The translations under genes were made by a program, and so were the position numbers. A DNA stretch of 64,000 nucleotides. It comes from Octopus vulgaris (Eukaryota). This document shows positions 6,112 through 63,620 of this stretch, in pieces. The stretch covers positions 32,054,001 to 32,118,000 of the forward strand of contig OX597837.1 in the NCBI GenBank assembly GCA_951406725.2, read 5' to 3'. The notes below the pieces were generated by a model. That model saw only the letters and a program-made list of their open reading frames with translations, was not told the DNA's origin and did no database searches. The first letter of the stretch is position 1, and every line of letters begins with the position of its first letter.

Positions 6112-6237
6112 ATTATTATTATTATTATTATTAATATTATTATAATTCATCATCATCATCATTATCATTATCATTATTATCATCATCATCATTATTATTA
6201 TTATTATTATATATTATTATTATTATTATTATTATTA

Positions 6238-6277
<40 letters not shown>

Positions 6278-6327
6278 CATCATCATCATTATTATTATTA
6301 TTATCATCATCATCATCATCATCATCA

Positions 6328-6361
<34 letters not shown>

Positions 6362-6499
6362 CATTATTATTATTATATATTATTATTATTATTATTATTA
6401 TTATTATCATTATTATTATTATTATTATTACTATTATTATTATTATTATTATTATTATCATTATTATTATTATTATTATTACTATTATTATTATTATTA

Positions 6500-6537
<38 letters not shown>

Positions 6538-6539
6538 AA

Positions 6540-6590
<51 letters not shown>
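6112..6590. repeat. (ATT)n/(ATC)n microsatellite
   Basis: Directly visible. Confidence 0.98.
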
Positions 6591-6599
<9 letters not shown>

Positions 6600-7062
6600 G
6601 TACTGGGAAGAGATTAAGACACTTAATCCTGTCCCCTAAAAATGTGAGGTATCGTGTCCGTATAAGATGTCATACTTGATACCAATATGTTAGTTTACGT
6701 AATATAAATGTATATATGGGTGTATGTATATATACATATACGGTTGTGATGGTAGTAGGGATGCTGGTTGTGATGATGGTGATGGTGTTGATTATGGTGG
6801 TGCTTGTTCTGGTACTGGTCGTGGTGCTGGTGCTAATGACTCAAATCCGTGTTGGTTGCAGTAATAAGTGAAAAGTTGTAAAGTCCTGTCACATATGAAG
6901 ATGAGAAGAAAAAACAAACAAATTTTTCTTTGGTCTTAATTGATATATTTAATCAAGATAATAAGTCCCTTCATTATTGATAACATAATCTCATCTACTT
7001 AGCAAAATGTTCATCTCTTGAGCGTAAAATCCTTCAGATATCGAATCAAAGAAACACTCGAT

Positions 7063-7088
7063 TAAGTGTTTTAATCTCTTCCCAGTAC

Positions 7089-7143
<55 letters not shown>

Positions 7144-7181
7144 CAACAACAACAATAATAATAATAATAATGATAATAAGG

Positions 7182-7254
<73 letters not shown>

Positions 7255-7283
7255 TGATAATAATAATAATAATAATAATAATG

Positions 7284-7314
<31 letters not shown>

Positions 7315-7340
7315 TAATAATAATAATAATAATAATAATG

Positions 7341-7429
<89 letters not shown>
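7063..7429 (+). other. TSD-flanked templated insertion: ~35 nt inverted copy of 6591-6625 followed by (AAT)n
   Basis: 7060-7097 is the reverse complement of 6591-6628 (1 mismatch). Direct repeat AACACTCGAT at 7053-7062 and 7430-7439. Confidence 0.8.
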
Positions 7430-7435
<6 letters not shown>

Positions 7436-25481: not shown

Positions 25482-25952
25482 GATCTTGTAATGGTCTGGT
25501 GCAACATGTGCCATAAGCCTAGTAGTTACCCCCAAGCAGTGGGTAAAAGACTTTAACGAGAGAACGGTGGTGTTGAGGACGTATTCCAAGTCTCTCGACT
25601 AAGGTCCTGGAGTAGTTAATAAAAGTGGCGACCCCCGCTCCCCCATTAGAGGGAGAGATAGAGGCAGTCAAGGAGGTGAGGACCTCCTCGAAAAAAGGAA
25701 AGAAAAGAAAGAATGTGGGCAACAATGGTTGCCCACCGAATGACCCTAAAGCTGCGGGAGGGGAGGAAGATCCTCCGGATAAAGCGGAGGTACCACACCC
25801 TCCCGTAGCAAAGGGAAGAAAAAGAAAAAAGAAAAAGAACGGGACATTGCCGGCGGTTAATGATACACTACCGGCATGCCCTGAAACTTTGTGCGAAGTA
25901 TGCCATCGACAGAGGAAACTGTATGTAGCCCCTTGTGGGCAGTAAAGAAATA
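25482..25952 (+). pseudogene. Coding-like fragment (candidate LINE ORF1 remnant) ending in an F/LINE tail
   Basis: GC-richer unique sequence; SYPQAVGKRL followed by a Lys/Pro-rich ORF (25625-25945); ends TAGCCCCTTGTGGGCAGTAAAGAAATA. The ORF1 identity is inference. Confidence 0.4.
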
Positions 25953-26476
25953 GGTCTCTTTTACTATGTTGCGAGGACGTAAATACACACCAGTTGTCAA
26001 GCGTTGGGGGTGACTCAAACACATGCACACACAGTGTAGTCCCATGCGTTGGAGATGGCCAAAATTATGCCAGTTAAATATGCCATGAAGCAATTAAGTC
26101 TAGTGCTACTATCCTATGACGCAGTACGCCAGAAAATTAAGGACATGAGTCAGGAAATATCAGTCTAATATATCAGCGTGATATTAAACGTAGGCCAGCA
26201 AAACTCAGCATGCAACGCGATTAATCAGCTGACGTCTCAATCAGCAGCCAATTAATAGGTTATGTTTTTCTCTTTTATTCCTTTATTTGTTTTAGTCGTT
26301 GGACGGTGGCCATGCTGGAGCACGGACTTGTATGTAAGTTTAATCGAAGAAATCGGCCCCAGTACTTATTTTAAGTGCGGAGCCCTATTCCATAGGTGTC
26401 TGATAAGGTACGGGGACGTAAGCAAACCAACAATTGTTTATCAAGCGGTGTGTGTGGAGAGGGCCCAAAGACAAAC

Positions 26477-26593: not shown

Positions 26594-27179
26594 GTGTATG
26601 TGTGTGTGTGTGTGAGTGTGTGTGTAGGAATTGTATTGGTTTGCTCGTGTTCAGTTCGCTACCGGACGAGGACCTCAGCATGTTCTGTCCACCAACCGCC
26701 GTCCGATGTGTAAGCCGTGAGTTTGAGCTGAGATAATAATTGTTTGATGAGCCGACTCGACCACACTGGGTCGTCATGGCTTGGCTGATGGGTACCATTT
26801 TTTTTATACTCACACCCAAGAGTATTTAAGTCAATTACATCGACCCCAGTGCTCACTGGTATTTATTTTATCGACCCCGAAAGAATGAAAGGCAAAGTCG
26901 ACCTCGGAGGAATTCGAGCTCCTAAGTCAGGACAGACGAAATACCGCTAAACAGTTCGTCTGGTGTGCTAAAATTTAGGCAATCCTGGGTTTTGGGTTAT
27001 GCAAAGAGACAACTTTATTCTGGAAACTGAACTGAATAGATTATTAACCAATGATCCTTAAACGCAAAGAAGCGAAACATCATGTGTAAATGTATCCTCG
27101 CAGATGTATGTTTACCAGGTGGTTACACCCGGCCACCGCTTGGACAATTTTGGTGTTTTGGTTCTCTTACCAACTACCC

Positions 27180-27805
27180 GGTTTATCAGCCGAGTCTATC
27201 ATCAATATCGTCCCGCCCCCTTCCTTCAAACGGGAAGGAAGAGCTTTTTTATCATACTTGTGGCTATGGCGAAAGAATGTATCTGGTGGACGCGTCTGAA
27301 AGGATTAGAGACAAACACTTTCCTCTCTGGTCAATCTCTCATCAACTTCTTCAAGTATCACTTGAAAAGGAAAGTGAGAGTAGAGAGGCAAGTTTTGTCT
27401 AGCGAATGTTTCAAAAACAGATGGGTGAATGTAGCAAGGATGGCACGTATGAATGACGAAGCCACCTTGAGCATAATCCTATGAACCCGGAAAAATTTAA
27501 AACAGAGAGTTACTTACTTGCAAATAAATGTGTTAACATGTGACATTATTGACCGAGGTTACCGTGGTCTTTTCCGTAGGCTTTTCTTTCCACGAATAAA
27601 CCTTATCTGTTTCCCCCTTTACACTCTATACCATGACATTTCTGTGATACACGATCCCTATTGATCGTTGTTTTTTTTCTTTTCTTTCCTTTTTATGATC
27701 CCTTCTGATCGAAAACCTACCCCACTTTTTTTTCTCACCAAAAAGAAAAGTTCTACCTTATAATTTGTCCCATCTGTGTTCAGCCCTGTGTGGCTAATAA
27801 AGAAA
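27180..27805 (+). mobile_element. Tx1/L1-clade-like LINE 3' end (ORF2 C-terminus plus 3'UTR)
   Basis: LSAESIINIVPPPSFKREGRAF/FIILVAMAKECIWWTRLKG...FFKYHLKRKVRVERQVLSSECFKNRW resembles the AK..IW..R...RW C-terminus of Tx1/L1 ORF2. Stop at 27484; T-rich UTR; a second UTR fragment lies at 53692-53820 (-). Confidence 0.72.
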
Positions 27806-27859
27806 CATATGTTTGTAAAAGAAGGTTTTCCTGTATTTCTGAACACCAAAATCCTCAAA

Positions 27860-28277: not shown

Positions 28278-28383
28278 GTGAAGAAATCGAGACGATGTGT
28301 CAAAAGACTAATGACTAACCACTAATCTTGTCAATAAATCTATGTTTCAAAGTCAGATGGGTGAATGTATCGAGCAAGGATGG

Positions 28384-28524
28384 AACTTATTCTTTGTAAG
28401 CCCAGTACTTATTCCATCGGTCTCTTTTGCCGAACCGCTAAATGTCGGGGACATAAACACACCAGCATTGGTTGTCAAGCGATGCTAGGGGGACAAACAC
28501 ACAAACAGACAAACGCACATACAT

Positions 28525-31848: not shown

Positions 31849-32081
31849 TATGCGTAAGCGCGTGTAATGTATGTGTGTATGTGTATGTTTGTTTACGTTC
31901 CTATCAACAGCGTGTTGGCGGAAGAGTATGAAGCGAATGTGTTAAACCGTTTAGCACGATCAGAGGAACGCATGACGTACCGTGACGGATTTACTCCCGG
32001 CATGGTTCAATGGCTTTACTTATTGACAAAGCAGAATGCCTACCTCTCAGATCAACAAAACAGCTTCAGTAGCAGCATCTT

Positions 32082-33228
32082 CCTTTTCTACTCTAGGCAC
32101 AAGGCCGGAAATTTTTGGGGAGTTGTGACAGTCGATTAGATCGACCCCTATACGCAACCGGTACTTAATTTATCGACCCCGATAGGATCAAAGGCAAATT
32201 CGACGACGGCGAAATTTGAAATCAGAACGTAACGACAGACGAAATACTTGTTTCTTTACTACACACAAAGGGCTAAACACAGAAGGGATAAACAAGGACA
32301 GACAAACGGATTAAGTCGATTATATCGACCCCAGTGCGTAACTGGTACTTATTTAATCGACCCCGAAAGGTTGAAAGGTAAAGTCGACCTCGGCGGAATT
32401 TGAACTCAGAACGTAGCAACAGGCGAAATACCGCTAAGCATTTCGCCCGGTATGCTAACGTTTCTTATTTCTTTACTGCCCACAAGGGGTTAAACATAGA
32501 GGGGACAAACAAGGACAGACAAACGGATTAAGTCGATTATATCGACCCCAATGCGTAACTGGTACTTAATTTATCGACCCCGAAAGGATGAAAGGCAAAG
32601 TCGACCTCGGCGGAATTTGAACTCAGAACGTAACGACAGACGAAATACCGCTAAGCATTTCGCCCGGTGTGCTAACGCCTCTTATTTCTTTATTGCCCAC
32701 AAGGGGATAAACATAGAGGGGACAAAAAGGACAGACAAAAGGATTAAGTCGGTTATATCTACCCCAGTGCGTAACTGGTACTTAATTTATCGACCCCGAA
32801 AGATGAAAGGCAAGTCCAGTGCGTAACTGGTACTTCATTCATTGACCCCGAAAGGATGAAAAGCAAAGTCGACCTCGGCGGAATTTGAACTCAGAACGTA
32901 AAGACAGACGAAATACCTATTTCTTTACTACCCACAAGGGGCTAAACACAGAGGGAACAAACAAGGACAGACAAACAGATTAAGTCGATTATATCGACGC
33001 CAGTGCGTAACTGGTAATTATTCAATCGACCCCGAAAGGATGAAAGGCAAAGTCGACCTCGGCGGAATTTGAACTCAGAACGTAACGGCAGACGAAATAC
33101 GGCTACGCATTTCGCCCGGCGTGCTAACGTTTCCACCAGCTCGTCGCTTGAATATTCTTTTCTACTCTAGGCACAAGGCCTGAATTTTTTGGAGAAGGGG
33201 TCCAGTCGATTCTGCCAGCTCGCCGCCT
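32082..33228 (-). mobile_element. SINE F tandem array (~5 units) with mixed tails, plus an internally deleted copy (33153-33228)
   Basis: Internal units end in the GTAAAGAAATA-type tail; the terminal unit ends in GCCTTGTGCCTAGAGTAGAAAAG. Two junction types are present. Confidence 0.9.
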
Positions 33229-43897: not shown

Positions 43898-44108
43898 TAA
43901 GGCAGAATCGCTAGTACACCGAACAAAATGCTGAGCGTCATTTCGTCCGCTTTTACGATCTGAGTTCAAATTCCGCCGAGGTCGACTTTGCCTTTCATCC
44001 TTTCGGAGTCGATAGAATAAGCACCAGTTGAGCACTGGGGGTCAACGCAATCGACTTACTTCCTCCTATGAACTTGCCGGCCTTGTGCCAAAATTTGAAA
44101 CCAATATT
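43898..44108 (+). mobile_element. F-related SINE with alternative tail
   Basis: Core followed by GGCCTTGTGCCAAAATTTGAAACC. Confidence 0.8.
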
Positions 44109-44271
44109 AGTCTAGTGGATCATCCGACACTAAATTCGCTCTGATTTCCTCTCTTCAAGTCAATCTCACACTTTACTACCGATGTTGACCACAGGAAAGA
44201 TAAGGGACTCCCGGTGTCCCTGCAAGCGTTTACGTTGGATCTCAATAAGCCGAAACGGTTACTGTAACGTA

Positions 44272-45061
44272 TGGCAGCGAGCTGGCAGACACGTTAGCGC
44301 ACCGGTCAAATACTTAGCGGTATTTCGTCTGTCTTTACGTTCTGAGTTCAAATTCCGCCGAGGTCGACTTTGCCTTTTCATCCTTTCGGGGTCGATTAAA
44401 TAAGTACCAGTTACGCACTGGGGTCGATGTAATCGACTTAATCCGTTTGTCTGTCCTTGTTTGTCCTCTCTGTGTTTAGCCCCCTTGTGGGTAGTAAAGA
44501 AATAGGTATTTCGTCTGTCTTTACGTTCTGAGTTCAAATTCCGCCGAGGTCGACTTTGCCTTTCATCCTTTCGCGGTCGATAAATTAAGTACCAGTTACG
44601 CACTGGGGTCGATGTAATCGACTTAATTCGTTTGTCTGTCCTTGTTTGTCCTCTCTGTGTTTAGCCCCTTGTGGGTAGTAAAGAAATAGGTATTTCGTCT
44701 GTCTTTACGTTCTGAGTTCAAATTCCGCCGAGGTCGACTTTGCCTTTCATCCTTTCGCGGTCGATAAATAAGTACTAGTTACGCACTGGGGTCGATGTAA
44801 TCGACTTAATCCGTTTGTCTGTCCTTGTTTGTCCTCTCTGTGTTTAGCCCCCTTGTGGGTAGTAAAGGAATAGGTATTTCGTCTGTCTTTACATTCTGAG
44901 TTCAAATTCCGCCGAGGTCGACTTTGCCTTTCATCCTTTCGGGGTCGATTAAATAAGTACCAGTTACGCACTGGGGTCGATGTAATCGACTTAATCCCTT
45001 TGTCTGTCCTTGTTTGTCCTCTCTGTGTTTAGCCCCTTGTGGGTAGGGTAGTAATGAAATA
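44272..45061 (+). mobile_element. SINE F array, 4 units, one head, single TSD
   Basis: TATTTCGTC at 44321, 44507, 44691 and 44875 (period 184-186). TSD GGTTACTGTAACGTATGG at 44257-44274 and 45062-45079. Confidence 0.95.
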
Positions 45062-51124: not shown

Positions 51125-51627
51125 TTATCAGTCGCACATAGTGCAAGTATTTTGTCAATTTGCTGTGGGATAGCGTTCAAAGTAAAAGTCCTAACGCGAC
51201 GCCAAGTTTTAAAGACGAGTGAATGTTTTAGACGAGTTAAGACAACTCGCTCCGAAAATAAAAGAGAGCAACAGAAAATCAACTGAGTGATCTGTCACGG
51301 ATGGCTTTCGACTAGGCTCCCATGGAAAATTTTCTAGAAATCCCTGGCCCGGCAGTGCTACCGAGGTGCAGTGCTACCGAGGTGCAGTGCCCGGTTCGAG
51401 ATAGACTCTGCAGACACTGAAATACCATAAGACGTGAATGTCCGACACGAGGCACAAAGAACGAGACTACTCTGCACGCGCTCATCCAGTGCCCAAGCGT
51501 TGAAAAAGAAAGTGAAAGCGAAGAGGAAATTTCTAACTCTCAGCAAATTTGTTGAAAGGTGGATGAGAATAGCCAGCAATGATTTTAGTGAACTGGCCTG
51601 CTCTGAGCATGTTCCTGTGAATTGTTG

Positions 51628-52219
51628 TCTGTTCCTTCTCGAGCCACGCCTGGCTCATAGAGGGCCGGTTTCCCGGTTTCCTTGTCGTATAGGTTCCCCA
51701 CCTGGACGGGAAGCCGGTCCGTCGCAGTTGAGCTGCAAGATGCAGAAGGAAAGTGCGAGAGAAAGTTATGGCGAAAGAGTCAGCATAAGTTCGCCATTAC
51801 CTTCTGCCGGAGCCACGTGGAGCTTAGGTGTTTCGCTCATAAACACTCACATCGCTCGATCTGGGATTCGAACCCGCGATCCCTCGACCGCGAGTTCACT
51901 GCTCTAACCACTAGGCCATGTGCCTCTACAGAGGTTCGCCATTACCTTCTGCCGGAGCCGCGTGGAGCTTAGGTGTTTCGCTCATAAATACACACATCGC
52001 CCGGTCTGAGATTCGAACCCGCGATCCCTCGACCGCGAGTCCGTTGCTCTAACCACTAGGCCATGTGCCTCAACATAGGTTCGCCATTATATCCTGCCGG
52101 AGTCGCACGGAGCTTAGGTGTTTTGCTCATAAACACACACATCGCCAAGTCAGAAATTCGAACCCGCGATCCCTCGACCGCGAGTCCGCTGCTCTAACCA
52201 CTAGGCCATATGCCTCCAC
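51628..52219 (-). mobile_element. SINE family D (B-like head/core, different tail) with three tandem heads
   Basis: ~145-bp head at ~51790-51930, 51931-52075 and 52076-52219. TSD TCCTGT(G/A)AATTG at 51613-51624 and 52220-52231. Confidence 0.9.
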
Positions 52220-52487
52220 TCCTGTAAATTGATAAAGGACTATTAAGAGAGAGTATTTGCCTTAGTGGTCAATGTGACCGTGGTTTTGTGGCCTCCAATG
52301 TGTTGGTTGATTTTTCTTTGAATTTTTGAATTTATATTTTTTTCTTATTTGTTATTTTCCTCATTTGACTTGCATTTTTATGTAATCCAACACTATATCG
52401 TTCAGAACCGTTCCTGATATTTTTGTCAAGCCTTGGTGGTTAATGAAGAAAACATTATAATTATAAATTTTTTTTTTATCATTGTTA

Positions 52488-52551
<64 letters not shown>

Positions 52552-52921
52552 GAACCATACAGCGAGGGACGGTACATTCGTTTTTACCCAGCCCCTCCCA
52601 AAGTATGTGAACTTGTGTCTATGAGAACTTACTGTTAAAACATCTGTGAATATTTAAAAAAAAAACAAACGAAAAACCAACCTGAGGCTGAGAAAAAGAA
52701 AAAAAAACAATTCAGAGAAAATACCAAAAAAAAAAAACAAAAAAAGAAATTCCTACAAAACAAGCGAAAGACAAACGCAATGAGAAGAACAAAACGAAAC
52801 AGGAAATAGAATTTATAAAAAGAAAAAAATACACAAAAAGCAAAAACTATGCAAAATATAAAAAATAAGGTGTAGGCGTGTCGTTAAGAAGTGAGTTTCG
52901 CCACCACGTGGTTCTTTTACC

Positions 52922-53339
52922 TATTTCTTTACTACCCACAAGGGGCTAAACACAGAGGGGACAAACAAGGACAGACATAGGTATTAAGTCGATTACATCG
53001 ACCCCAGTGCGTAACTGGTACTTTAATTTATCGACCCCGAAAGGATGAAAGGCAAAGTCGACCTCGGCGGAATTTGAACTCAGAACGTAACGGCAGACAA
53101 AATACCTATTTCTTTATTACCCACAAGGGGCTAAACACAGAGGGGACAAACAAGGACAGACATAGGTATTAAGTCGATTACATCGACCCCAGTGCGTAAC
53201 TGGTACTTTAATTTATCGACCCCGAAAGGATGAAAGGCAAAGTCGACCTCGGCGGAATTTGAACTCAGAACGTAACGGCAGACGAAATACCGCAAAGCAT
53301 TTCGCCCGGCGTGCCAACGTTCCTGCCAGCTCGCCGCCT
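52922..53339 (-). mobile_element. SINE F array, 2 units
   Basis: TSD CACGTGGTTCTTTTACC at 52905-52921 and 53340-53356. Confidence 0.95.
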
Positions 53340-53628
53340 CACGTGGTTCTTTTACCATTTAGTATTTCGTTTCGAGCCCTCCATCCTGCTGACCTTTGGT
53401 AAAATCATTACGTTCTTGTCGACTGAGGAATGTTCACCTGGAATGGAGAACACGATATTTCATAGTGGGTTGACAGGGTGGCTACAATCAGTTTTGCCTT
53501 TTTTGTTTTCTTACAATGTTGGTCCTAAGATCTTTAAGGTTGCCGTTCTTATCAGGTCTAACATTGCAATAACCCCTTCGTTTATCGGATCTCTGATATG
53601 TCGTAGAACCATCGGCATTCGTAATAAG

Positions 53629-53685
<57 letters not shown>

Positions 53686-53691
53686 GGATAG

Positions 53692-53820
53692 TTACAAGGT
53701 AGAGCTTTTCTTTTGGGGGTTGAAGAAAACAAAAAAACAAGAGAAAAAAAAGAAAAAAAAGGGGTGGCGTAGGTTTTCGATCAAGAGGGATAGTAAAAGG
53801 GAAGAAAAGAACAAAAAAAA
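53692..53820 (-). mobile_element. 3'UTR fragment of the Tx1/L1-like LINE inside (GATA)n
   Basis: The reverse complement contains TGATCGAAAACCTAC and AAAAGAAAAG(C/T)TCTACCTT, as at 27705-27760. Confidence 0.7.
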
Positions 53821-53906
53821 TAATAAATGAATAAAATAAAAATAAAAAGAATAAAAAGAAAAAAAAGAAAAAGATAGATAGATATATAGATGGATAGATA
53901 GATGAA

Positions 53907-54024
<118 letters not shown>

Positions 54025-54254
54025 TAAAGATAGATAGATAGACACCTATATATATAAATATATATATATATATGACAGACACACACTGAACTTGATGGCA
54101 TACAAAAGACGCACTGGTATATCGTATACACCTCTGTTTCAGCAACTCGTATTTGGGGGAAAAAATGTGTTTTTAGTGCACCAAAGCATGTAGTATTGGC
54201 CCAATTTCGCTTATAGAGTCCAGGGTGAATTTAAAGTTATATTTATGCATATAT

Positions 54255-63215: not shown

Positions 63216-63620
63216 AAGGCGGCGAGTTGGTAGAAACGTTAGCACGGCGGGCGAAATGCGTAGCCGTATTTCGTCTGCCGTTACGTTCTGAGTTCAAATT
63301 CCGCCGAGGTCGACTTTGCCTTTCATCCTTTCGAAGTCGATAAATTAAGTACCAGTTACGCACTGGGGTTGATGTAATCGACTTAGTCCGTTTGTCTGTC
63401 CTTGTTTGTCCCCTCTGTGTTTAGCCCCTTGTGGGTAGTAAAGAAATAGGTATTTCGTCTGCCGTTACGTTCTGAGTTCAAATTCCGCCGAGGTCGACTT
63501 TGCCTTTCATCCTTTCAGGGTCGATAAAATCAGTACCAGTTACGCACTGAGGTCGATGTAATCGACTTAATCCCTTCCCCCCAAATTTGAAGCCTTGTGC
63601 TTCCAGTAGAAAGGATTATT
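63216..63620 (+). mobile_element. SINE F dimer with mixed tails, running into (ATT)n
   Basis: Unit 1 has the GTAAAGAAATA tail; unit 2 has GCCTTGTGCTTCCAGTAGAAAGG followed by (ATT)n to ~63850. Confidence 0.92.

What the first reader, a model, noticed from the sequence alone, without database searches (positions are those of the whole stretch)
27764..27805. The F SINE tail matches the 3' end of a Tx1/L1-like LINE in the same window
Seen: the LINE-like fragment ends TTTGTCCCATCTGTGTTCAGCCCTGTGTGGCTAATAAAGAAA, and F units end TTTGTCCCCTCTGTGTTTAGCCCCTTGTGGGTAGTAAAGAAA (36/42 by eye). Established: SINEs borrow 3' ends from partner LINEs, mostly L2, CR1, RTE and I-group; L1-clade partners usually act through poly(A), and Tx1 elements are often target-specific. 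Inference: this is a stringent-type SINE with a Tx1/L1-like partner, which would also supply the target bias proposed for the arrays.
Basis: partly seen in the sequence, partly recalled or inferred. Interest (0 to 1): 0.72.

Follow-up and report, generated by a model that had tools for sequence, protein, structure and literature searches.

The report
Octopus SINE shares L1-type LINE tail
An abundant short mobile element (SINE) in what is likely an octopus genome ends in nearly the same 42 bases as a whole family of L1-type retrotransposons, so it likely borrows their copying enzyme through a sequence handle instead of a poly(A) tail, an unusual pairing for this retrotransposon group, although the two elements do not share insertion sites.

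Summary
Observation confirmed: 27764-27805 matches the F SINE tail at 36/42. It ends a 5'-truncated LINE (about 27180-27810) whose relatives carry endonuclease plus RT and are closest to human L1 ORF2p among solved structures. The tail is family-wide, not a stray SINE: contigs of other copies from four sequencing runs join LINE UTR to tail, and a divergent sister LINE at 51241-52455 ends in a related motif, which favours LINE-to-SINE borrowing. One copy (53692-53871) lacks most of the tail. The proposed shared target is not supported: LINE ends run mostly into (CTAT)n, 0 of 21 F tails do, and F duplications start GGT/AGT/GAT/AAG. Tx1 membership is likely but untested (no labelled reference). 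Best reading: F took its tail from this L1/Tx1-type lineage and is likely moved by a sister family with another target. Listed L1-clade tail pairs were only plant and algal; Tx1-moved SINEU share targets, not tails. Interest 0.55.

The parts
27180..27484 (+). LINE A: C-terminal end of ORF2 (5'-truncated, frameshift near 27245, stop at 27482-27484)
   Evidence: (71% and 72% to P0127), depth step at 27164-27192
27485..27763 (+). LINE A: 3' UTR, with a block at about 27541-27598 that stays deeply covered in all four runs and a variable T-rich tract at about 27657-27743
   Evidence: table 2
27764..27805 (+). 42-base tail shared with the F SINE (36/42); predicted small hairpin AGCC-CTGTGT-GGCT at 27782-27795
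27806..27810 (+). LINE-specific last bases CATAT; other copies continue into (CTAT)n here, this copy does not
   Evidence: table 7
53692..53871 (-). LINE B: second, short 3' UTR copy of the same family, inside (TCTA)n on both sides (53629-53691, 53872-54042); lacks most of the 42-mer
51241..51624 (+). LINE C: decayed ORF2 end of a divergent sister family (63% DNA identity to A over 128 bases)
52232..52455 (+). LINE C: inferred 3' UTR beyond a duplication-flanked insert (51625-52231); ends in a tail related to A's (52429-52455), then (ATT)n to 52550
63217..63450 (+). Example full-length F SINE unit (about 235 bases), tail at 63405-63446
52921..53339 (-). F array (full unit plus 185-base unit) inside a 17-base target duplication; tails start at 53150 and 52965
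44270..45061 (+). F array of four tails (44460, 44645, 44828, 45013) inside an up to 18-base target duplication

Best explanation
The 42 bases are the family-wide 3' end of an abundant L1-type (likely Tx1-like) retrotransposon, and the F SINE likely acquired this end from that lineage and is likely copied by a sister family of it that would recognise the tail sequence rather than poly(A). Shown: shared tail, family-wide presence, L1-superfamily protein, related tail in a sister LINE, different flanks of LINE and SINE. Inferred: F arose when a SINE head and body were joined to the LINE's last 42 bases (template switch during reverse transcription); ORF2p binds the small terminal hairpin plus AAAGAAA, nicks DNA with its endonuclease and primes reverse transcription at the nick. 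Different families of the lineage appear to favour different sites: family A (CTAT)n, family C (ATT)n (one copy), and the unseen partner of F a short pyrimidine-then-RRT/RRR site.
For: 36/42 identity ending at both elements' 3' ends, unrelated upstream; alignment score 60, 0 of 1000 shuffles., four runs: single-contig depth (6-56) on the left flank, summed depth rising to 1e5-3e6 at the peaks within 27180-27810; 121/119/111/64 contigs (counted up to 128) differ from the window at 27760, four bases before the tail, with at least one per run carrying it 51 letters from its end; X3 record 24 spans 27638-27810 with 15 other letters and 4 gaps, while the window's own left junction is matched without a difference in that run (record 17), so it is another copy; 79 X13 contigs have a variant LINE UTR right before the tail; a G at 27780 makes up 71%, 72%, 87% and 12% of summed depth in X1, X3, X6, X13 and is in 0 of 21 F tails, so much of the tail signal is not F. 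Five positions separate the LINE tail from 15-18 of 18 F tails. Sister LINE C ends in a related motif: pattern hits only 27782 and 52429, 0 in 100 shuffles; A tail vs C end scores 34, 0 of 1000 dinucleotide shuffles, F tail vs C end only 23, 29 of 1000. P0127, 72% identical to the window peptide, hits human L1 ORF2p at E 1e-50 over endonuclease and RT against 4e-22 for R2. No poly(A) after 21 of 21 F tails.
Against: The sister family with an F-type tail and F-type target was not seen; it is postulated. Copy B lacks most of the tail and ends almost where the SINE match begins. The middle of C's UTR does not match A's above chance (112 and 44 of 1000 shuffles), so linking C's ORF end to its tail rests on colinearity and a 12-base duplication with one mismatch. 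The hairpin is weak (-5 to -8 kcal/mol), was the predicted fold in 11 of 21 F tails, sits one base out of register between LINE and SINE and was not tested against shuffles. F's target motif rests on 5 duplications of 11 loci and could reflect pairing with the RNA end instead of nuclease choice. Summed contig depth is no copy number, and 1635 loose-end rows were not shown.
Confidence: 0.6

Rival explanations
1. Family A itself moves F, and target choice is looser or different in trans.
For: A is the closest match to the F tail in the window (scores 56-60 against 23-27 for C) and is very abundant. The window's own A copy is not in (CTAT)n. SINEU-1 and -2 show much weaker target preference than SINEU-3 (23% and 13% against 90%; PMC4494074). 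Contigs that stop matching at 27805 also run into TCTA-rich sequence (72/60/44 contigs in X3/X6/X13, agreement 0.45-0.55) and could include F-like copies.
Against: 0 of 21 F tails are followed by a CTAT repeat; F duplications begin with purine-purine, whereas A's flank reads (CTAT)n on the same strand; five near-fixed tail differences.
Confidence: 0.17
2. F took the tail from this lineage long ago but is now moved by an unrelated LINE (for example RTE, CR1 or another group); the match is a relic.
For: Tail divergence of 6/42 with near-fixed differences; target mismatch; RTE, CR1 and Dong-R4 families are listed as recently active in O. vulgaris (PMC13282606); tail exchange is common in SINEs (PMC5786205 abstract).
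Against: The shared 42-mer reaches F's very end with only TA added, so there is no room for a newer tail; 74-91% identity is usual for accepted SINE/LINE matches (PMC5786205 Table 1).
Confidence: 0.12
3. Reverse direction: the LINE family captured the 3' end of F (a truncated F landed at the end of a master copy and was carried along), and F has another partner.
For: Copy B stops within a few bases of where the SINE match starts and is followed directly by (CTAT)n; a 36-base truncated F tail exists at 25919-25954, so such stubs are made.
Against: Sister LINE C ends in a related motif that is closer to A than to F. B's junction keeps CCATCT, part of A's tail, which fits loss by short homology with the flanking (ATCT)n. 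Tail-less ends are not among the best-supported loose ends shown, and diverged subfamilies in run X13 have the tail too.
Confidence: 0.08
4. A single truncated F happened to land after this one LINE fragment.
For: F is dense in the window (21 tails in 64 kb).
Against: Other LINE copies in four runs carry the tail, with LINE-specific letters.
Confidence: 0.03

Closest known systems
L1-clade SINE/LINE tail pairs: maize ZmSINE2/ZmSINE3 with LINE1-1_ZM; Chlamydomonas SINEX-3_CR with L1-1_CR (PMC3747384 Table 1; PMC3472496 passages)
   Same: SINE 3' end of about 45-80 bases matches the 3' end of an L1-clade LINE; short hairpin proposed as the handle.
   Different: Those are plants and a green alga and were the only three L1-tail SINEs among 58 pairs in that survey; this is an animal, has no poly(A) after F, and the LINE is microsatellite-associated.
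Crocodilian SINEU with Tx1-Mar (PMC4494074, parts 1-4 of 5)
   Same: SINE likely moved by a Tx1-type LINE; tandem insertions.
   Different: SINEU partnership rests on a shared target and no LINE sharing the SINEU-1 3' end was found; SINEU have poly(A) tails. Here it is the opposite: shared tail, unshared target.
Microsatellite-targeting Tx1 elements: Kibi (TC)n, Koshi (TTC)n, crocodilian (TTCC)n/(TTTC)n families (PMC4494074)
   Same: L1-superfamily LINE associated with a simple repeat.
   Different: (CTAT)n and (ATT)n are not among the targets named there; clade membership of the octopus element was not tested against them.
Octopus CORE-SINEs OR1/OR2 (Ohshima and Okada 1994, seen only as cited in PMC4824008, PMC4758252, PMC5804259)
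   Same: Abundant short octopus SINEs; F may be one of them.
   Different: No sequence was available to compare; no octopus SINE appears in the SINE/LINE pair table.
Octopus L1-Tx1 LINE families (PMC13282606: 80 families, 13 recently active; PMC8967140)
   Same: The LINE is probably one of these annotated families.
   Different: No SINE partnership or target analysis in the parts read.

Membership tests
L1 superfamily (L1/Tx1 group) of non-LTR retrotransposons | ORF2 with N-terminal AP-type endonuclease, RT and C-terminal zinc-binding region, closer to L1 than to other clades | tested here: met
   Through relatives, since the window holds only the C-terminal 100 codons: P0127 (72% over 69 aa) hits human L1 ORF2p E 1e-50 over residues 38-829 against R2 4e-22; RVT_1 and zf-RVT in P0003, plus Exo_endo_phos in P0009 and P0010. 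Only L1 and R2 RTs appeared among solved structures, so RTE, CR1 and I were not directly compared.
Tx1 clade | RT phylogeny groups it with named Tx1 elements | tested here: inconclusive
   Tree of 25 relatives gives a supported four-member group with the argonaut protein P0008 (100/99), set apart with seven unnamed relatives by a long branch from lancelet, sea cucumber and turtle proteins; no row is a labelled Tx1 or L1 (searches gave none).
Tx1 clade | Target preference, often a microsatellite (common, not universal) | tested here: met
   Loose ends behind 27810 read (CTAT)n in 164/131/87/65 contigs, agreement 0.50-0.65; copy B has the repeat on both sides; copy A has none. An intrinsic repeat tail is not fully excluded.
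Tx1 clade | ORF1 with RRM and/or CCHC knuckle (PMC5203782 passage) | not testable with these tools
   No full-length locus could be fetched. Distant lancelet and sea cucumber relatives carry PF00098.
Stringent-type SINE/LINE pair | SINE 3' end homologous to the LINE family's 3' end | tested here: met
   36/42; family-wide; one truncated exception.
Stringent-type SINE/LINE pair | Conserved stem-loop in the shared tail | tested here: inconclusive
   4-bp stems around CTGTGT (LINE) and CTTGT (11 of 21 F tails), weak and one base out of register.
Stringent-type SINE/LINE pair | Same insertion signature as this LINE family | tested here: not met
   0 of 21 F tails followed by CTAT repeats; 5 of 11 F loci with duplications starting GGT, GGT, AGT, GAT, AAG/AGA.
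Stringent-type SINE/LINE pair | Tail required for mobilisation in an assay | not testable with these tools
   No experiment.
tRNA-derived SINE (SINE2), CORE-SINE OR1/OR2 | tRNA-related head with A and B boxes | tested here: inconclusive
   ARAGORN found no tRNA in the window, Rfam nothing at 52900-53400, my strict box patterns nothing; a B-box-like GTTCAAATTCC is visible by eye.
tRNA-derived SINE (SINE2), CORE-SINE OR1/OR2 | Short non-coding interspersed repeat with target duplications | tested here: met
   About 235 bases, many dispersed copies, 7-18 base duplications at 5 of 11 loci.
tRNA-derived SINE (SINE2), CORE-SINE OR1/OR2 | CORE domain and identity with the published OR1/OR2 consensus | not testable with these tools
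   No Repbase, Dfam or SINEBase access.

The most novel reading that the evidence does not exclude
Octopus holds a radiation of Tx1-like LINEs that keep a conserved 3' hairpin handle (stringent RNA recognition) while switching DNA targets ((CTAT)n, (ATT)n, a short dispersed motif), and several of its dominant SINE families are parallel tail captures from different members: F from the A branch, the sister SINE with GGC-CTTGT-GCC tails and (ATT)n ends from the C branch. That would be the first animal L1/Tx1 lineage with tail-sharing SINE partners, at very high copy number.
Probability: 0.3. Interest if true: 0.75.

Novelty: new variant of a known kind. Interest (0 to 1): 0.55.

Why it matters
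Ohshima proposed that L1-clade elements began with stringent 3'-end recognition and relaxed to poly(A) recognition in mammals and flowering plants; the support was three SINEs from plants and a green alga. An animal L1/Tx1-type LINE with a conserved, SINE-shared, non-poly(A) tail would extend that to animals and give a 42-base handle that can be mutated in an assay. It also names a candidate engine for one of the SINE families that make up 11.6% of the O. vulgaris genome in total, and separates RNA recognition (shared) from DNA targeting (not shared) within one lineage. It remains a new case of a well-known relationship, and Repbase, Dfam and SINEBase entries could already note it.

Tried and rejected
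No whole genome is held for the window, so the genome-wide tblastn and target logos could not be run. Scans for loci elsewhere were empty: metagenome contigs gave 1 weak locus of 234 candidate stretches (38% over 26 aa, not used); genome contigs none; viral contigs none and 45 matches to a 15-mer that I did not examine and take as chance; phages and plasmids none. Pfam found nothing in the two window peptides. Naming the clade through source names failed, as did the protein atlas (RT clusters only) and NCBIfam. No RNA holder was listed among runs, which says nothing about expression. No contig covered 27831-27858 in any run; not used as evidence. No target duplication was found by eye for copy A. 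A's most common tail variant (G at 27780) has no exact match in the window. UTR homology between A and C was not above chance. Earlier findings of this scan: none. Rejected: chance landing of one F stub; shared microsatellite target for F; poly(A)-type tail for F.

Full report
Setting. The window is repeat-rich animal DNA. A 97% match over part of the peptide to an Octopus bimaculoides protein (P0006) and an Argonauta relative (P0008) make an octopus the likely host. No assembly was available, so evidence on other copies comes from the window and from one laying of public contigs.

Observation. The 42-mer is at 27764-27805. A 17-base pattern finds it and 21 F SINE tails, against 0.04 matches expected. 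It is 36/42 identical to the majority of 18 gap-free F tails (3 tails with indels left out); those tails are 36-42/42 to their own majority and 31-37/42 to the LINE; at five positions (27772, 27781, 27787, 27788, 27794) none of the 18 has the LINE's letter or at most two do. The match begins abruptly at 27764 and ends at AAAGAAA; the LINE adds CATAT, F adds TA.

The LINE. 27183-27245 and 27245-27481 encode, in two frames, the end of an ORF2 that is 71% and 72% identical to P0127, a 1111-residue protein whose best solved relative is human L1 ORF2p (E 1e-50 across endonuclease and RT; R2 4e-22). Relatives carry RVT_1, zf-RVT and, where long enough, Exo_endo_phos. So it belongs to the L1 superfamily. 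Whether it is Tx1 proper was not settled: a tree of 25 relatives shows a supported group of P0003, P0008, P0127 and P0133, on a long branch with seven unnamed proteins, but no labelled Tx1 or L1 row could be obtained. Tx1 is favoured by the microsatellite association below and by published L1-Tx1 families in octopus.

Is the tail family-wide? Contigs of 4 of the 24 listed runs were laid on 26990-27858 at 80% likeness (23,809, 14,878, 6,433 and 5,108 laid). The left flank has one contig per run; summed depth jumps at 27164-27192, peaks at 1e5-3e6 over the ORF end, a UTR block at 27541-27598 and the tail, dips over the T-rich tract, and falls after 27810. These sums are not copy numbers. Just upstream of the tail, 113/107/89/57 contigs differ from the window at 27751 and 121/119/111/64 at 27760 (counted up to 128), at least one per run 51 or more letters from its end. 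X3 record 24 spans 27638-27810 with 15 other letters and 4 gaps, while the same run matches the window's left junction without a difference, so this is another copy bridging UTR and tail. In X13, 79 contigs carry a variant LINE UTR directly before the tail; in X6, 27 contigs carry the F body there. Single contigs also join ORF or UTR sequence directly to the tail region across internal gaps (27328 to 27741 in 3 of 4 runs; 27401 to 27768 in X13). A G at 27780 accounts for 71%, 72%, 87% and 12% of depth and occurs in 0 of 21 F tails. A stray F stub is therefore excluded. Only the best rows were shown (1635 loose ends and 108 differences hidden).

Result against. A second copy of the same UTR (B, 53871 to 53692, minus strand) ends CTTGTAACT-ATCCATCT and goes straight into (ATCT)n, without the rest of the tail. 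This could be an ancestral tail-less form. I think loss is likelier because the junction keeps CCATCT, which lies at positions 7-12 of A's tail and resembles the flanking repeat, and because no tail-less end is among the loose ends shown; this is inference from one copy.

Direction. A third element (C) has a decayed ORF2 end at 51241-51624 (63% DNA identity to A; score 62, 0 of 1000 shuffles), an insert flanked by a 12-base duplication with one mismatch, and then a T-rich stretch ending AGCCTTGGTGGTTAATGAAGAAAAC followed by (ATT)n. A hairpin-plus-AAGAAA pattern hits only A and C in the window. A's tail matches C's end at score 34 (0 of 1000 dinucleotide shuffles), F's tail only at 23 (29 of 1000); the middle of the two UTRs does not match above chance (112 and 44 of 1000). 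A related end in a divergent sister LINE, closer to A than to F, favours a lineage-wide LINE motif borrowed by the SINE, with the caveat that C is one interrupted copy.

Targets. Contigs that match through 27810 continue mostly as (CTAT)n (164/131/87/65 contigs, agreement 0.50-0.65). B has this repeat on both sides, A on neither, which fits a preferred target better than a built-in tail. F differs: 0 of 21 tails are followed by a CTAT repeat or a poly(A) run. Five of 11 F loci examined have clear duplications of 7-18 bases, starting GGT, GGT, AGT, GAT and AAG or AGA, mostly after a pyrimidine. Array units restart inside F's own head at C|GGT or C|AGA, which fits self-insertion under that same weak preference. 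So F has a bias, but not this family's. One loose thread: contigs that stop matching at 27805 are also TCTA-rich (72/60/44 in three runs) and their upstream identity is unknown.

Structure. The LINE tail folds AGCC with GGCT around CTGTGT; 11 of 21 F tails fold GCCC with GGGY around a five-base loop; energies are -5 to -8 kcal/mol and the registers differ by one base. This is compatible with a stringent-type handle but does not show one.

Mechanism. Most likely (0.6) F gained the last 42 bases of this LINE lineage by template switching and is copied by target-primed reverse transcription by a sister family whose ORF2p reads the tail and whose endonuclease has another preference. Shown: homology, family-wide presence, superfamily, sister motif, flank difference. 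Inferred: direction, recognition, identity of the active partner. Rivals: family A itself with looser targeting in trans (0.17), relic tail (0.12), reverse capture (0.08), chance (0.03).

Comparison with print. Ohshima 2013 (PMC3747384; passages and part 1 of 2 of the tables) and 2012 (PMC3472496; passages) list 58 pairs, three with L1 tails, all plant or algal, none Tx1 or cephalopod. Kojima 2015 (PMC4494074; parts 1-4 of 5) links SINEU to Tx1-Mar by target only. Kojima 2018 (PMC5786205; abstract, passages, supplement search) has no Tx1 or octopus mention. Bivalve and gastropod studies (PMC11481361, PMC4758252, PMC4824008, PMC5804259; passages) name CR1, CR1-Zenon, L2 and Nimb partners in the passages seen. 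Bonar 2026 (PMC13282606; parts 1-2 of 3 and a supplement search), Marino 2022 (PMC8967140; passages) and Ivancevic 2016 (PMC5203782; passages) give no such pair in what I read. Ten searches showed no report of it; subscription papers (Ohshima and Okada 1994, Kojima and Fujiwara 2004), Repbase Reports, Dfam, SINEBase and the Zenodo library of Bonar 2026 could not be seen and may hold it. Whether F is OR1 or OR2 is untested, and its tRNA origin was not confirmed.

Verdict. Real, family-wide and apparently unreported in the open literature searched; a new variant of the known SINE/LINE tail relationship, with an unusual partner class. Interest 0.55.

Noticed in passing
window 63572-63620 (+), 33150-33197 (-), 32081-32125 (-), 44062-44108 (+): Sister SINEs with F-like head or body but another tail, hairpin GGC/AGC-CTTGT-GCC/GCT; the 63591 copy ends in (ATT)n. 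Its tail scores 23 against LINE C's end (0 of 1000 mononucleotide shuffles), and C is also followed by (ATT)n: a possible second SINE/LINE pair, one copy each.
   Followed up: partly
window 51241-52550 (+): Divergent sister LINE (C) interrupted by a duplication-flanked insert (about 165 unknown bases plus a 145-base-period array), ending in a related tail and (ATT)n.
   Followed up: yes
window F arrays, e.g. 52921-53339 (-), 44270-45061 (+), 32130-33147 (-): Array units restart at C|GGT (period 184-185) or C|AGA (period about 217) inside F's own head, sites like F's genomic duplication starts; one outer duplication encloses a whole array. Fits self-insertion with homologous 5' joining.
   Followed up: partly
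window 28342-28390 (+): 49-base scrap 84% like the LINE's ORF end (27406-27450), next to another SINE fragment.
   Followed up: no
window 26990-27178: In run X13 the single contig of the left flank runs on unlike the window after 27178, while X3 and X6 contigs cross the junction: the insertion may be absent in that sample.
   Followed up: no
window 6112-7431: Two long ATT/TAA arrays face each other with inverted inner flanks of about 40 bases (after 6592 and before 7096), like a fold-back element.
   Followed up: no
window 25919-25954 (+): 36-base F tail stub with no body, showing extreme 5' truncation.
   Followed up: no
protein P0006: An O. bimaculoides predicted protein starts with 37 residues nearly identical to this LINE's ORF2 end, fused to unrelated low-complexity sequence; probably a gene-model artefact.
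   Followed up: no
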